64,000 nucleotides of DNA, from the NCBI RefSeq assembly GCF_009914755.1, contig NC_060939.1; one strand, written 5' to 3'. This stretch comes from the human T2T-CHM13v2.0 reference genome, Homo sapiens. A program made the position numbers and the translations under genes. How positions within the stretch are numbered: position 1 is the stretch's first letter; each line of letters begins with the position of its first letter. Shown here one piece after another: positions 20,952 to 29,584 of this stretch. The notes beneath the pieces were generated by a model. It was given only the letters and a program-made list of their open reading frames with translations, ran no database searches and was not told the DNA's origin.

Positions 20952-23900
20952 GTCAATGTCATACCCTCAGGAGAAAGAGATGGATGGGTTATTGTGTATC
21001 TGTAATTTCACTAAGTATGACCAAATTGCTTCCACCAGCAGGGACAAGGATGTTGTTTTCAGTATCTTGGCCAAAAAGATAACATTCAACTTTCTTGTTT
21101 AATATCACTGGTCATTTTATTAGTCAATGAGGTTTCACTTGAGAGATCAATTAAACATCTCTTCATATACTAGTTAGTCATTTAAGGTCTCCTTCTGCGA
21201 ATTGACTTCTAATATTCTTTTCCCATTTTCCTGTTGTGTATCTTGTATTTTCTCTTGTTGAATAAATATATTCTCCCTGTCTGTCAGCTGTTAACTTTGT
21301 CTCTGATGTTCTTTACTAAGCAGAAATCCTAAATTTTGATGTAGTCATAGCTAACATTTTGCCTTATAAAGTTTTGTGCTTTTGGAAGTATAAGATCTTT
21401 GCCTTCTAAAGGTTAAAAAAAAATCAACCATTATAGTTTTTACCAATCCATCTAGAGTTGAACTTTGCATATATCATGTGGTAGGTATCCAAAATTATTT
21501 TTCTTCATTAAGTGAACCATTTTTTCCCAGCAATAATTATGGATCTAGCTTTTTCTAAATATATGTAGTAAGCGTCTCCTCCCAACATAAAACAACTTTT
21601 AGTTTTTGTAAGATTTTAAGACAGCCAAATTTAACTTTTTGTCCTGTGTAATATTTATTTATTATTTAATATTGTTCCTGTTTAAGAAATCTTTCCCAGT
21701 CCTAAAGGCAAAAACATATTCATCTATATTTTCTACTAATATTTTGTACCCTTTCTTTGACATTTAAGCTTTTACTTCTTTGGGAGTTAATTTTGTTTTT
21801 CATTTAAACTAAGGATAAAACTTAATTTTCCCCTAACTTGAATCAACATGTTTTCCAGCTCCTTTCATTGAACAATCACTCCTTTTCCCAGTGATCTGTT
21901 ATACTATCTTTATCATTTATCAAAGTTTACCGTACTGTAGGTTTTTGTTTCTGAGATGTCTAATCTATTCCACTGGGTAATTTGTCCATCCCTGTGTAAT
22001 AACATACTTTCAGACACAATGGCTTTATAGTAAGTCCTGATTTCTGGCTAAGCATATCTTTCCTCCTTATTCTTCTTTTTCACATGTATCTGGAAACTTA
22101 GTAATAGCTTGTCAAGTTCCATGAAAAACGCTATTAATTAGAGTTGTGTTCAATCTGTAGATTAATTTAGTGAGAATTAATATCATTTTGACATAAACTT
22201 TTCCTACTCATGAGATATTTCTCCATTTTCATAGGTTTCCTTAATGTTTTCCAGTAAATTTTCATAATTAATGTGTGTGGGTCCTTTATATACTTCGTTA
22301 GATTCATTACTAAGCTTTTTATTATTTTTATTGCTAATGTAAATAGTGTTCCATATAAATTACATTTTCCATTAATTTGTTGCCATTATAGAAATGCAAT
22401 TAATTTTGAAAATATTGATCTTATATCTTGGTACCTTACAAAAATCTCCTACTATTTCTAATAATTTGTAGGACTTTTTTTTTTTTTTTGTCAAGGTTCT
22501 TTGTAGACAATTATGTTGTCTGCAGATTTTAAGGGCAATTTTATTTCCTCCCTTCTAATTCTAAATATCTTTATTTTCTTTTTCTTCTCTTATTGTTCTG
22601 GCTATGCTCTCTACTAAAACGTTGAAGGAAAAAAGTGGTACAGGTAATGTATTTGTTTAGTTCCTGATTTTAAAGAAAATGCTTTTAAATTATTTTCTCA
22701 TTTAAGATTATGCCTACTGTAGGTTCTTGGGTGTTACGTTTTTAGATTAATTTGATTTGGTTTTTTAATCACACCTGAGGCATTTAAAATTTTTTACATT
22801 TTGGATATTTTAAAAATTTCCTCTTTAATTCAAGCTTATTAATTGTGTTATTCAAATCCTCAATAAATTTATTTTTTTTAATTCCGTTTGGTCCAACAGT
22901 TTCTAAGTTGAATATATGGGATATCTAATTACAATTTCTGATATTTTTACATCTCTATATGTCTGCAGTTGTTGTATACATTTTGCGACTATATTGTTAG
23001 GTGAATATATGTTCATGTTTACTATATCATCAGGGTATATTGTTTCTTTTTGCAATATTAAATGTCCCTTTTGTCCCTTATGATGATCTGGAATACAATC
23101 ATTTTTGTGTCTTATTAAAGCTGTTACCCTGTCTTTCTTTTGGTTCACATTTGCATAAGATATTCTTTTCATCTTATTATTTTCCAATTTTTTTGTATAT
23201 ATTTTTTCAGTTTGCTTATTGAAAAAAACATAAAGTTGAATTTTTTTCCATTCCGAGAATCTCTCTTCTGAAATATGAGTTTAAGCTATTGATATTTGTG
23301 GTAATTAATGGTAAACTATTTCGTGTTACCTAATGATTTTTTATCATCGTGATTTCTATTTAGTTTTTATTTAATATTCTATATCTGCTTTATATTGGCT
23401 TGAAAACTATATATTTCTGTCTTTCTAGTACTTTCTCATATCTTATTAAAATTCATACTTTTTTCTATCTATTTCTAAGGCTTATTCATATATAAATAGT
23501 TCTCAAACAAGAAAAATACTTTAGGAAGTTCTCATTTCCCTCTGGTTTCTGTCCTTTCTACTTATTCCCCCACTCCAAGTCCCAAGCCACACTGCTATTT
23601 TAATTTTATTGATTAATTTTTGTCATTAACTTGGAAGGAAGGGAACATTTATTTAAACAAGAGTAAACTGGAGTCACTTCCAAGATGGCCGAATAGGAAC
23701 AGCTCCGATCTGCAGCTCCCAGTGAGATCAACGCAGAAGATGGGTGATTTCCGCTTTTCCAACTGAACCTCTGCTGGTGATACCCAGGAAAACAGGGTCT
23801 GGAGTGGACCTCCAGCAAACTCCAACAGACCTGCAGCTGAGGGGTCTGACTGTTAGAAAGAAAACTAACAAACAGAAAGGAAGAGCAGCAACATCAACAA

Positions 23901-23973
23901 AAAGGACATCCACGCCAAAACCCTACCTGTAGGTCACCAACATCAAAGACCAAAGGTAGATAAAACCACAAAG

Positions 23974-24995
23974 ATGGGGAGAAACCAGAGCAGAAAAGCT
24001 GAAAATTCCAAAAAAACAGAGTGCCTCTTGTTCTCCAAAGGATCACAGCTCCTCACCAGCAAGGGAACAAGACTGATGGAGAATGAGTTTGACGAGTTGA
24101 CAGAAGTAGGTTTCAGAAGGTCAGTAATAACAAACTTCTCCAAGCTACAGGAGCATGTTCTAACCCATTGCAAGGAAGCTAAAAACCTTGAAAAAAGGTT
24201 AGACGATTGGCAAACTAGAATAAACAGTGTAGAGAAGACCTTTAATGACCTGGTGGAGCTGAAAACCATGGCACAAGAACTTCGTGACGCATGCACAAGC
24301 TTCAATAGCAAATTCGATCAAGTAGAAGGAAGGATATCAGTGATTGAAGATCAAATTAATGAAATAAAGTGAGAAGACAAGGTTAGAGAACAAAGAGTGA
24401 AAAGAAACAAGCAAAGCCTCCAAGAAATATGGGACTATGTGAAAAAACCAAATATACGTTTGATTGGTGCCAGAAAGTGATGGGGAGAATGGAACCAAGT
24501 TAGAAAACACTCTTCAGGATATTATCCAGGAGAACTTCTCTAACCTAGCAAGGCAGGCCAACATTCGAATTCAGGAAATACAGAGAACACCACAAAGAAA
24601 CTCCTCGAGAAGAGCAACCCCAAGACACATAATTGTTAGATTCACCAAGGTTGAAATGAAGGAAAAAATGTTAAGGGCAGCCAGAGAGAAAGGTTGGATT
24701 ACCCACACAGGGAAGCCCATCAGACTAACAGCAGATCTCTCAGCAGAAACCCTACAAGCTAGGAAAGAGTGGGGGCCAATATTCAATATTCTTACAGAAA
24801 GGAATTTTCAAACCAGAATCTCATATCCAGCCAAACTAAGCTCCATAAGTGAAGGAGAAATAAAATCCTTTACAGACAAGCAAATGCTGAGAGATTTTGT
24901 CACCACCAGGCCTACCTTACAAGAGCTCCTGAAGGCAGCACTCAACATGGAAAGGAACAACCGGTACCAGCCACTGTAAAAACATGCCAAATTGT
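23974..24995 (+). pseudogene. L1 ORF1p, disrupted
   Basis: MGRNQSRKAENSK.. with premature TGA at 24370-24372 and a frameshift before VPESDGENGTKLENTLQDIIQENF.. Confidence 0.93.
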
Positions 24996-25060
24996 AAAGA
25001 CCATTGACGCTATGAAGAAACTGCATCAATTAATGGGCAAAATAACCAGCTAACATCATA

Positions 25061-28000
25061 ATGACAGGATCAAATTCAAACATAACAATATTAACCTTAA
25101 ATGTAAATGGGCTAAATGCCCCAATTAAAAGACACAGACTGGCAAATTGGATAAAGAGTCAAGACCCATCAGTGTGCTGTATTCAGGAGACCCATCTCAC
25201 GTGCAAAGACGCACATAGGCTCAAAATAAAGGGATGGAGGAAGATCTACCAAGCAAATGGAGAGCAAAAAATAGCAGAGGTTGCAATCCTGGTCTCTGAT
25301 AAAACAGACTTTAAAACAACATCAAAAGAGACAAAGAAGTCCACTACATAATGGTAAAGGGATCAATTCAACAAGAAGAGCTAACTATCCTAAATATATA
25401 TGCACCCAATGCAGGAGCACTCAGATTCATAAAGCAAGTCCTTAGAGACCTACAAAGAGACTTAGACTCCCATACAATAATAGTGGGAGACTTTAACACC
25501 CCATTGTCAGTATTAGACAGATCAATGAGACAGAAGGTTAACAAGGGTATCCAGGACTTGAACTCAGCTCTGAACCAAGCAGACCTAAGAGACATCTACA
25601 GAACTCTCCACCCCAAATCAATAGAATATACATTCTTCTCAGCACCACATCACATTTATTCTAAAATTGACCACATAATTGGCAGTAAAACACTCCTCAG
25701 CAAATGTGAAAGAACAGAAATCACAACAAACTGTCTCTCAGACAACAGTGCAATCAAATTGGAACTCAGGATTAATAAACTCACTCAAAATTGCACAACT
25801 ACATGGAAACTGAACAACCTGCTCCTGAATGACTACTGGGTAAATAACGAAATGAAGGCAGAAATAAAGATGTTCTTTGAAACAAATGAGAACAAAGACA
25901 CAACATATCAGAATCTCTGGGACACATTTACAGCAGTGTGTAGAGGGAAATCTATAGTATTAAATGCCCACAAGAGAAAGCAGAAAAGATCTAAAATCAA
26001 CACCCTAACATCACAATTAAAAGAACTAGAAAAGCAAGAGCAAACACATTCAAAAGCCAGCAGAAGGCAAGAAATAACTAAGATCAGAGCAGAACTGAAA
26101 GAGATAGAGACAGAAAAAAACCCTTCAAAAAATCAATGAATCCAGGAGCTGGTTTCTTGAAAAGATTGACAAAATAGATAGACCGCTAGCAAGACTAATA
26201 AAGAAGAAAAGAGAGAAGAATCAAACAGATGCAATAAAAAATGATAAAGGGGATACCACAACCAATTCCACAGAAATACAAACTACCATCAGAGAATACT
26301 ACAAACACCTCTATGCAAATAAACTAGAAAATCTAGAAGAAATGGATAAATTCCTGGACACATACATCCTCCCAAGACTAAACCAGGAAGAAGTTGAATC
26401 TCTGAATAGACCAATAACAGGTTCTGAAATTGAGGCAATAATTAATAGCCTACCAACCAAAAAAAGTCCAGGACTAGAGGGAGTCACAGCTGAATTTTAC
26501 CAGAGGTACAAAGAGGAGCTAGTACCATTCCTTCTGAAACTATTTCAGTCAATAGAAAAAGAGGGAATCCTCCGTAACTCATTTTATGAGGCTAACAGCA
26601 CCCTGATACCAAAGCTTGGTAGAGACACAACAAAAAAAGAGAACTTTAGGCCAATATCCCTGATGAACATCAATGCAAAAATCCTCAATAAAATACTGGC
26701 AAACTGAATCCAGCAGCACATCAAAAAGCTCATCCACCATGATCAACTTGGCTTCATCCCTGGGATGCAAGGCTGGTTTAACATATGCAAATCAATAAAC
26801 ATAATCCATCACATAAACAGAACCAATGAAAAAAACCACATGATTATCTCAGTAGATGCTGAAAAGGCCTTCGACAAAATTCAACAGCCCTTCATGCTAA
26901 AAACTCTCAATAAACTAGGTATTGATGGAACGTATCTCAAAATAATAAGAGCTATTTATGACACACCCACAACCAATACCATACCAAATGGGCAAAAACT
27001 GGAAGCATTCCCTTTGAAAACTGGCACAAGACAAGGATGCCCTCTCTCACCACTGCTATTCAACATAGTGTTGGAAGTTCTGGCCAGGGCAGTCAGCCAA
27101 GAGAAAGAAATAAAGGGTATTCAATTAAGAAAAGAGGAAGTCAAATTGTCCCTGTTTGCAGATGACATGATTGTATATTTAGAAAACCTCATTGTCTGAG
27201 CCCCAAATCTCCTTAAGCTGATAAGCAACTTCAGCACAGTCTCAGGATACAAAATCAATGTGCAAAACTCAAAAGCATTCCTATACACCAATAAAAGACA
27301 AACAGAGAGCCAAATCATGAGTGAACTCTCATTCACAATTACTACAAAGAGAATAAAATACCTAGGAATCCAACTTACAAGGGATGGGAAGGACCTCTTC
27401 AAGGAGAACTACAAACCACTGCTCAGTGAAATAAAAGAGGACACAAACCAATGGAAGAACATTCCATGCTCATGGATAGGAAGAATGAATATCATGAAAA
27501 TGGCCATACTGCCCAAAGTAATTTAGAGGTTCAATGCTATCCCCATCAAGCTACCACTGACTTTCTTCACAGAATTGGAGAAAACTACTTTAAAGTTCAT
27601 ATGGAACCAAAAAAGAGCCCGCATAGCCAAGACAATTCTAAACAAAAAGAACAAATCATCATGCTACCTAACTTCAAACTATACTACAAGCCTACAGTAA
27701 CCAAAAAAGCATGGTACTGGTACCAAAACAGATATATAGACCAATGGGACAGAACAGAGGCCTCAGAAATAACACCACACAGCTACAACCATCTGATCTT
27801 TGACAAACCTGACAAAAACAAGCAATGGGGAAAGGATTCCCTGTTTAATAAATGGTGCTGGGAAAACTGGCTAGCCATATGTAGAAAGATGAAACTGGAT
27901 CCCTTCCTTACACCTCATACAAAAATTAACTCAAGATGGATTAAAGACTTAAATGTAAGGCCTAACACCATAAAAACCCTAGAAGAAAACCTAGACAATA

Positions 28001-28870
28001 CCTTTCAAGACATAGGCATGGACAAAGACTTCATGACTAAAACACCCAAAGCAATGGCCACAAAAGCCAAAATAGACACATGGGATCTAACAAACTAAAG
28101 AGCTTCTGCACAGCAAAAAAACTATCATCAGAGTGAACAGGCAACCTACCAAATGGGAGAAAATTTTTGAAATCTATGCATCTGACAAAGGGCTAATATC
28201 CAGAATCTACAAAGAACTTAAACAAATTTACAAGGAAAAAACAACCCCATCAAAAAGTAGGCAAACGATATGAACAGATACTTCTCAAAAGAAGATATTT
28301 ATGCAGCCAACAGACATATGCAAAAATGCTCATCATCACTGGTCATCGGAGAAATGCAAATCAAAACCACAGTGAGATACCGTCTCATGCCAGTTAGAAT
28401 GGTGATCATTAAAAAGTCAGGAAAGAACAGATGTTGGAGAGGATGTAGAGAAATAAGAACGCTTTTACACTGTTGGTGGGAGTGTAAATTAGTTCAACCA
28501 TTGTGGGAGACAGTGTGGCGATTCCTCAAGGATCTAGAACTAGAAATACCATTTGACCCAGCCATCCCATTACTGGGTATATACCCAAAGGATTATAAAT
28601 AATTCTACGATAAAGACACATGCACATGTATGTTTATTGTGGCACTATTCACAATAGCAAAAACTTGATGGACCCAAATGTCCATCAATGATAGACTGGA
28701 TTAAGAAAATATGGCACATATACACCATGAAATACTACACAGCCATAAAAAATGATGAGTTTATGTCCTTTGCAGGGACATGGGTGAAGCTGGAAACCAT
28801 CATTCTAAGCAAACTATCACGAGGACAGAAAACCAAACACCACATGTTCTCACTCATAAGTGGGAGTTCA
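25061..28870 (+). pseudogene. L1 ORF2p (EN/RT), disrupted by multiple stops and frameshifts
   Basis: MTGSNSNITILTLNVNGLN (endonuclease), [13 protein letters not shown] and [12 protein letters not shown] (RT), CWRGC..HCWWECK (C-terminal) are spread over at least eight ORF fragments. Confidence 0.95.
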
Positions 28871-29584
28871 ACAATGAGAATACATGGACACAGGGCAGGG
28901 AACATCACACACCGGAGCCAGTCGGGGCACTGGGGCCTGGAGGAGAGATAGCATTAGGAGAAATACCTAATGTAAATGACAAGTTGATGGGTGCAGCAAA
29001 CCAACATGGCACATGTATACCTATATAACAAACCTGCACATTGTGCACAGGTACCCTAGAATTTAAAGTATAATAAAAAAGTAAAATAAAAAAGAAATTG
29101 GGAAAGCTGAAAATAAAAAAATAAAAAAGTGAATTTACTTTTTCTTTACAAATATCTCATGAGGGCTCCAATTTATTTTTCTTTTTAAAAATACCTTCTT
29201 CCTATGAGTTTTCAAAGAGGGTCTTTGGGAAACTTTCTAAAGGTTTTTTTTTTTTTGATTGAAAATATCTTTATTTTGTCCTTATATTTAAAAGATAATT
29301 TAGCTTGCTATATGATTCTAAGCTTTAAGTTCTTGTCCTTCCACAATTTGAAAATACTACTCCATTGTCTTCTGATATTTGGTGTTGCTGTTGATAAGTG
29401 TGAGGTCGATCTAATTCTTTTCCTTTCTAGGTTATCTACTTTTTCTCTCTGAAATCTTTTAGAGATTTTAGTTTGACTAAACTTCTTAAAATTCACTGTA
29501 ATGTGACTAGAATGAGGTAATATGAATGCATGTTTCTGTGAACTTTCTTATCTATTTTGGCATTCATTCTACAACACATTTCTT

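What the first reader, a model, noticed from the sequence alone, without database searches (positions are those of the whole stretch)
23670..23973. Spliced L1 retrocopy (SpIRE) using an acceptor inside the 5'UTR segment lost from younger L1s
Seen: the 5'UTR of this otherwise full-length L1PA6-like element is only about 304 nt (23670-23973) instead of about 1 kb. The break lies at 23767|23768 (..TTTCCAACTGAA|CCTCTGCTGGTGATACCCAGG), 98 nt from the 5' end. Known: the consensus reads AACTGAG|GTAC at the +97 splice donor, and the right side follows TTCTGCAG| in L1PA4-and-older consensus, so both breakpoints fall on GT/AG. This acceptor is 61 nt upstream of the CCAACAG|ACCTG '790' acceptor, inside the 129-bp ZNF93-bound segment deleted during L1PA3. 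It is therefore not one of the 97/622, 97/790 or 97/976 SpIRE junctions. Inference: a spliced L1 mRNA was retrotransposed in cis, leaving a fossil of ancestral L1 splicing. The YY1 site (23681) is retained, while the antisense promoter/ORF0 region is gone. The last exon base is A rather than G, which requires one later substitution. I cannot tell whether this copy or junction class is already catalogued.
Basis: partly seen in the sequence, partly recalled or inferred. Interest (0 to 1): 0.8.

Follow-up and report, generated by a model that had tools for sequence, protein, structure and literature searches.

The report
Known-type spliced LINE-1 retrocopy (SpIRE97/853)
This is an old, dead LINE-1 copy made from a spliced LINE-1 messenger RNA; the splice type is already published as SpIRE97/853, although this copy is not in the published list and the type looks several times commoner than reported.

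Summary
Window 23670-29125 is a LINE-1 whose 5'UTR is 304 nt. A break at 23767|23768 removes about 718 nt. In unspliced relatives the missing piece starts with GT (AACTGAG|GTACC) and ends with AG (TTCTGCAG|CCTC).

The interpretation, a retrotransposed spliced L1 mRNA, is supported. The junction class is not new. Larson et al. 2018 (PMC5860796) showed by RT-PCR that donor G98U99 splices to acceptor A851G852 inside the 129-bp L1PA4 segment. They listed nine genomic 'SpIRE97/853' copies. Their printed sequences carry the same junction letters as the window copy.

The window copy is not among those nine. It was absent from all 8 supplementary files searched.

My census of the window's own genome found the junction at 78 places, which I count as 51 independent insertions. 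One of those insertions has been copied to 28 places by segmental duplication.

On a tree, spliced copies interleave with unspliced ones, and a single spliced lineage is rejected (AU p 0.0004). Splicing therefore recurred across successive L1PA subfamilies.

Target-site duplication of this copy: not demonstrable. Orthologues: not testable here.

Verdict: an ordinary new member of a known kind, plus a modest census extension.

The parts
23670..29125 (+). Whole SpIRE97/853 element, about 5.46 kb: an L1PA6-age LINE-1 lacking 718 nt of its 5'UTR
   Evidence: Colinear with other spliced copies from 23678 to 29098. The 5' end was read and the A-rich tail.
23670..23767 (+). 5'UTR exon 1 (98 nt), ending at the splice donor. 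Last base is A where most copies have G.
   Evidence: In the unspliced copy L030 the next bases are GT.
23681..23691 (+). Retained YY1-type core caagatggccg
   Evidence: Sequence read. That this motif is the YY1 site of the L1 promoter is recalled knowledge, not tested here.
23767..23768 (+). Splice junction (donor side | acceptor side)
   Evidence: Same column in 29 of 29 aligned copies. Same letters as the published SpIRE97/853 sequences.
23768..23973 (+). 5'UTR exon 2 (206 nt). Its first 61 nt lie upstream of the ccaacag|acctg site.
   Evidence: 96% identity to unspliced L030 over 223 nt. In unspliced copies the acceptor is preceded by ..TTCTGCAG.
23974..24990 (+). ORF1 remnant with 7 in-frame stops in 338 codons
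24991..29073 (+). Inter-ORF spacer, broken ORF2 and 3'UTR. The internal boundaries were not mapped.
   Evidence: ORF fragments listed. Colinearity with L041 and L049.
29074..29125 (+). Degenerate A-rich tail
   Evidence: Sequence. L1 homology ends at 29072-29098 depending on the copy compared.

Best explanation
A full-length L1 of roughly L1PA6 age was transcribed from its own 5'UTR promoter. The spliceosome removed about 718 nt of the 5'UTR, from the donor after nt 97/98 (AACTGAG|GTACC) to the acceptor ..TTCTGCAG|CCTC. That acceptor lies inside the 129-bp segment later lost from L1PA3/L1PA2. The spliced mRNA was then reverse-transcribed into chr15 by the L1 machinery.

The product is a SpIRE97/853. 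It keeps the first 98 nt, including the YY1-type core, but lacks most of the internal promoter. It has since decayed: 7 stops in ORF1 and a fragmented ORF2. It has no evident present function.

Shown here: the junction, the GT/AG in unspliced relatives, the recurrence at independent sites, and the match to the published class. Inferred: retrotransposition in cis by target-primed reverse transcription, loss of the antisense promoter/ORF0, and the age.
For: **Junction and splice signals**
- Junction and coordinates.
- Unspliced L030 shows G|GTACC at the left break and a 718-nt interval to CCTCTGCTGG.
- 7,350 genomic places carry AACTGAG|GTACC. 4,342 carry TTCTGCAG|CCTCYRCTGG. Both controls gave 0.

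**Recurrence at independent sites**
- All 29 copies aligned have the break in the same column with different 5' flanks.
- The junction is at 77 places by pattern, plus L028, making 78.
- These form 50 flank clusters, corrected to 51 insertions.

**Match to the published class**
- Larson et al. 2018 detected this G98U99 to A851G852 splice by RT-PCR from an L1 5'UTR carrying the 129-bp L1PA4 segment, and listed nine SpIRE97/853 copies (section 16; S1 Table).
- Their S1 Data sequences read ..TTTCCAACTGAG|CCTC(C/T)(G/A)CTGGTGATACCCAGG (7 occurrences).
- Their copies 3, 6 and 9 match my L002, L023 and L017 in size and internal deletion.

**Acceptor choice in older elements**
- In older elements the downstream '790-type' acceptor was not used. 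That junction occurs at only 4 places, all of the young CCATCTGAG type.

**Rest of the element**
- Colinear to the A-rich tail.
Against: - No target-site duplication could be shown. The best flank match is an 8-mer, and 67 of 300 shuffles reach it.
- No orthologous or empty site could be examined, so a deletion after insertion is excluded only by the recurrence argument.
- The last exon-1 base is A, not G. This needs one later substitution; the same state is seen in 3 of the 51 independent insertions.
- The subfamily name L1PA6 was not tested, because no RepeatMasker or Dfam was available.
Confidence: 0.93

Rival explanations
1. The copy is a daughter of an already spliced SpIRE that was still able to retrotranspose. 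On this reading it is not a direct product of splicing of an unspliced source's mRNA.
For: The spliced label is more clustered on the tree than shuffled labels: 10 changes against a mean of 17.3, with 0 of 500 shuffles as low. Small spliced-only groups exist, with SH-aLRT support of 86-91.
Against: - In one search the window copy has no spliced sister. It sits alone on the ladder, and its nearest row by path is the unspliced U_L052.
- At least 7 changes of the label are forced by starred branches.
- One clade of all spliced rows is rejected: delta lnL 492, AU p 0.00037.
- Two candidate clade markers are not confined to spliced copies. One 20-mer is at 43 places, of which 1 is a spliced locus and 1 lies in a known unspliced copy. 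The other is at 10 places, of which 1 is spliced.
- Only 20 unspliced rows were sampled, and they were chosen for a perfect acceptor context. That choice alone can create clustering.
- Larson et al. report reduced promoter activity for the intra-5'UTR SpIREs they tested (abstract).
Confidence: 0.06
2. A genomic deletion of about 718 bp after a normal full-length insertion, or a reverse-transcriptase template jump at the short AG homology. No splicing is involved on this reading.
For: Both sides of the break end in AG (CTGAG / TGCAG), a 2-nt homology. No orthologue was checked.
Against: The same break, to the base, is present at 51 independent insertion sites. It falls exactly on GT...AG with a pyrimidine-rich run before the AG. 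The same RNA junction was obtained by RT-PCR from a reporter (Larson et al. 2018).
Confidence: 0.01

Closest known systems
SpIRE97/853 (Larson et al. 2018, PLoS Biol, PMC5860796)
   Same: Same donor, same acceptor and the same junction letters. Length about 5.4-5.5 kb, as in the listed full-length copies.
   Different: This copy is not among the nine listed. It has A for G at the last exon-1 base. On the tree it branches outside the clade that holds the listed PA6 and PA5 copies.
SpIRE97/790
   Same: Same donor. Its acceptor is only 61 nt downstream in this copy.
   Different: That junction occurs at only 4 places, all in young CCATCTGAG-type elements that lack the 129-bp segment (Larson section 16).
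SpIRE97/622 and SpIRE97/976
   Same: Same donor, and the same principle of a spliced L1 mRNA being retrotransposed.
   Different: Different acceptors. 97/976 also removes the start of ORF1. 97/622 is reported at 116 copies.

Membership tests
SpIRE97/853 | The junction joins the base before the G98U99 donor to the base after the A851G852 acceptor, with the letters of the published copies | tested here: met
   ..TTCCAACTGA(G/A)|CCTCYRCTGGTGATACCCAGG in the window copy, in L002-L029 and in the S1 Data of PMC5860796.
SpIRE97/853 | In unspliced relatives the removed piece starts with GT and ends with AG | tested here: met
   (L030: G|GTACC). (7,350 places, control 0). (4,342 places with CAG|CCTC, control 0). 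L030 itself has CCG at the acceptor.
SpIRE97/853 | The acceptor lies in the 129-bp segment absent from L1PA2/L1PA1 | tested here: inconclusive
   Taken from Larson et al., section 16. Here I showed only that the 97/'790' junction is confined to young-type elements. The limits of the 129-bp segment were not mapped.
SpIRE97/853 | The rest of the L1 is colinear to a 3' A-rich tail | tested here: met
SpIRE97/853 | Target-site duplication and an endonuclease-type cleavage site | tested here: inconclusive
   the best flank match is no better than 67 of 300 shuffles.
SpIRE97/853 | An independent insertion, not a duplicate of another copy | tested here: met
   the window copy's 5' flank clusters with none of the other 77 places.
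SpIRE97/853 | The short 5'UTR was present from the time of insertion (orthologues) | not testable with these tools
   No other primate genome is held.
L1PA6 subfamily | Diagnostic positions of the subfamily consensus | not testable with these tools
   No RepeatMasker or Dfam. Indirect evidence only: end branch 0.052, and a position just outside the 40-row clade that holds copies Larson labels PA6 and PA5.

The most novel reading that the evidence does not exclude
SpIRE97/853 is not a rare side product. With at least 51 independent insertions it would be the second-largest SpIRE class (116 are published for 97/622). It arose repeatedly along the L1PA ladder, including in elements that branch deeper than any listed PA6 copy. 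Its copies are more clustered than chance on the tree.

The boldest reading still open has two parts. First, a few of these spliced copies stayed mobile and seeded daughters. Second, the 129-bp deletion in L1PA3 was favoured partly because it removed this much-used acceptor, not only the ZNF93 site.
Probability: 0.1. Interest if true: 0.5.

Novelty: new member of a known kind. Interest (0 to 1): 0.22.

Why it matters
**The copy itself.** It does not matter much. It is a decayed, intergenic fossil of a published class of spliced LINE-1 insertions.

**The census.** This may be of some use.
- The published list of nine came from a BLAT probe built from a young L1 plus the L1PA4 segment, with a >95% identity cut-off (methods).
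- A degenerate junction pattern over the complete genome gives 78 places and 51 independent insertions.
- About 1% of old elements that carry this acceptor context are therefore spliced copies: 51 insertions against 4,342 unspliced places. The denominators are rough.
- For as long as the 129-bp segment existed, this acceptor rather than the '790' one was the one used.

This strengthens Larson et al.'s point that changes in the 5'UTR rewired L1 splicing.

Tried and rejected
- **Target-site duplication.** A local alignment and an ungapped scan with shuffles gave nothing beyond chance.
- **Single spliced lineage.** Rejected by the AU test.
- **Lineage markers private to spliced clades.**
  - A clade-F marker 20-mer is at 43 places, of which only 1 is a spliced locus.
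  - A clade-C marker is at 10 places, of which 1 is spliced.
  - Clade B had no private column.
- **Shared 4-nt deletion in L009, L010 and L026.** These three are not sisters on the tree, so the deletion probably recurred.
- **The L016-L045 flank link.** This is an artefact: both sit just after Alu poly(A) tails.
- **Sampling limit.** More unspliced comparators and full-length copies of all spliced loci could not be fetched, so the tree has only 20 unspliced rows and 1,735 columns.
- **Later literature.** Two full-text searches and passages of PMC7110667 and bioRxiv 10.1101/2025.02.02.635956 show no larger 97/853 census. Papers outside the held library were not searched.

Full report
**What is there.** One search shows an L1 5' end at about 23670 (ggagtcacttccaagatggccgaatagg...). 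The ORF1 start, atggggagaaaccagagc, is at 23974, so the 5'UTR is 304 nt. The sequence ..ttttccaactgaa|cctctgctggtgatacccagg puts the break at 23767|23768.

- The rest of the element is colinear with other copies of the same kind from 23678 to 29098: 90.5% identity over 5,447 columns to L041 and 89.6% to L049.
- It ends in a degenerate A-rich tail, about 29074-29125.
- ORF1 has 7 in-frame stops and ORF2 is in pieces.
- No gene is annotated over it in the table supplied with the finding.

**Are the breakpoints splice sites?** An unspliced relative from the same genome, L030, aligns to the left part up to AACTGA and then reads G|GTACCTGG. It aligns to the right part from CCTCTGCTGG, with 718 nt in between. 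L030 itself reads CCG before the right part, so I asked the whole genome.

| Pattern | Places | Reversed-pattern control |
|---|---|---|
| Acceptor context TGCTGTTCTGCAG\|CCTCYRCTGGTGATACCCAGG, up to 2 mismatches | 4,342 | 0 |
| Donor context GCATTTCCAACTGAG\|GTACCKGGTTCATCTCA, up to 2 mismatches | 7,350 | 0 |

The missing piece is therefore bounded by GT and AG, with a pyrimidine-rich run before the AG.

**Is the junction recurrent?**
- A search of the window's own genome with the 304 nt scored 40 of 4,383 candidates. Beside the window copy, 28 places matched across the junction at 86-92% identity. Eleven matched the right part only, at 94-95%. One matched the left part only.
- Aligned, all 29 copies have the break in the same column and different 5' flanks. 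The last exon-1 base is G in 26 and A in 3: the window copy, L008 and L024.
- A degenerate 32-letter junction pattern with up to 3 mismatches found 77 places, control 0. L028 is a 78th that the pattern missed.
- Clustering the 130 nt upstream of each copy gave 50 clusters.
- One cluster has 28 members: the acrocentric short arms of chromosomes 13, 14, 15, 21 and 22, plus sites on 1, 3, 9 and Y. All 378 pairs align over at least 250 nt at 91-100% identity, median 95.6%. This is one insertion spread by segmental duplication.
- The only other multi-member cluster, L016 with L045, is an artefact of both lying just after Alu tails.
- I therefore count 51 independent insertions. This is a lower bound.

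**Is it known?** Yes. I saw the following parts of Larson et al. 2018 (PLoS Biol 16:e2003067, PMC5860796): the abstract, passages, sections 16 and 21 in full, searches of S1 Table and S1 Data, and a search of all 8 held supplementary files.

- They put the 129-bp L1PA4 segment into a young L1 5'UTR. [quoted passage not shown]
- A BLAT probe across that junction then gave 'nine additional SpIRE97/853 sequences'.
- Their S1 Data sequences contain AACTGAGCCTC six times and AACTGAACCTC once, in the context ..TTTCCAACTGAG|CCTC(C/T)(G/A)CTGGTGATACCCAGG. These are the letters of the window junction.
- Their copies 3 (341 bp), 6 (379 bp) and 9 (deletion 1390-2186, 797 nt) match my L002, L023 and L017 in size and in a 796-nt internal gap. 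The flanks printed for copies 4, 5 and 8 are those of L010, L003 and L008.
- The one listed chr15 copy is L003, 2.49 Mb from the window copy.
- Two strings specific to the window copy occur in none of the 8 supplementary files.
- The class is therefore catalogued and this copy is not.
- Their method explains the gap: hg38, a probe whose left half comes from a young L1, and a >95% identity cut-off. That the window copy fell below that cut-off is my inference.

**One lineage or many events?** I built a tree on the first about 1.7 kb after the junction, with 1,735 kept columns (IQ-TREE, quick search).

- Rows: 44 spliced cluster representatives and 20 unspliced copies.
- The unspliced copies were L030 plus 19 of 20 taken at intervals from the chromosome 1 rows. 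All have a perfect acceptor context.
- Seven rows were dropped beforehand for truncation or large internal deletions: S_L002, S_L023, S_L017, S_L027, S_L084, S_L079 and U_L070. L016 was not a representative.
- The tree is the ladder expected of L1. Spliced and unspliced rows interleave.
- The spliced label needs 10 changes, at least 7 of them forced by starred branches.
- Holding all spliced rows together costs 492 log-likelihood units (AU p 0.00037). I ran that test after seeing the tree, on a group defined by the junction alone.
- Against a purely random scatter: the label is more clustered than shuffled labels (mean 17.3; 0 of 500 shuffles as low).
- I looked for substitutions private to spliced-only groups and checked two in the genome. 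One 20-mer is at 43 places, of which 1 is a spliced locus; one of the others lies in an unspliced copy already listed. The other 20-mer is at 10 places, of which 1 is spliced.
- These are ordinary subfamily variants, so I see no marker of a spliced master element.
- The small and biased unspliced sample may explain the clustering.

**Where the window copy sits.** It is alone on the ladder, just outside a 40-row clade (SH-aLRT 97). That clade contains the copies Larson labels PA6 (L003, L006, L008, L010) and PA5 (L034, L081). The window copy's end branch is 0.052. Thirteen spliced rows branch deeper still. The root is only a midpoint, so 'deeper' rests on their generally longer end branches. 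The name L1PA6 could not be tested.

**Acceptor choice.** The junction of the same donor to the downstream '790-type' acceptor occurs at 4 places, all with the young CCATCTGAG exon 1. This agrees with the four reference SpIRE97/790 copies in Larson et al.. In elements with the older CCAACTGAG exon 1 it occurs at 0 places, against 78 for the 853-type junction.

**What remains open.**
- No target-site duplication can be shown for this copy (an 8-mer at best, reached by 67 of 300 shuffles).
- No orthologue could be examined.
- Loss of the antisense promoter/ORF0 and of promoter strength is inferred from the position of the deletion and from Larson's assays on other SpIREs. It was not tested for this class.
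- Two literature searches and passages of two citing papers show no larger census of this class. The held library lacks most subscription journals.

Noticed in passing
L031, L038, L073, L075, L082, L087-L109 (G000 chromosomes 13, 14, 15, 21 and 22 short arms; C1:127.9 Mb; C3:75.85 and 95.6 Mb; C9:76.76 Mb; C24:11.45 Mb): One SpIRE97/853 insertion with its unique flank is present at 28 places at 91-100% identity. It marks a segmental-duplication family shared by the acrocentric short arms, several pericentromeres and the Y.
   Followed up: partly
G000:C12:42211955-42212612 (not fetched): The donor-side and acceptor-side matches lie only 368 nt apart on the same strand, instead of about 718. This looks like another, partial internal deletion of an L1 5'UTR.
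   Followed up: no
L009, L010, L026, exon 2 (alignment): The same 4-nt gap in GGGAC----CTGTTAG appears in three spliced copies that are not sisters on the tree. It is probably a recurrent slippage in CTGACTG.
   Followed up: partly
L031, L043, L084, L086, about 108-166 nt after the junction: These copies lack 30-60 nt of the 3' part of the 5'UTR relative to the window copy. It may be a subfamily length variant.
   Followed up: no
L016 (C10:12.87 Mb) and L045 (C8:127.58 Mb): Both spliced L1s were inserted directly behind an Alu poly(A) tail, as expected of an endonuclease that prefers T/A-rich targets.
   Followed up: no
L079 (C13:84.93 Mb): A spliced copy cut off only 47 nt after the junction, with about 136 nt of L1 in all. 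It is a third very short 3'-truncated SpIRE97/853, beside the two in Larson's list.
   Followed up: no
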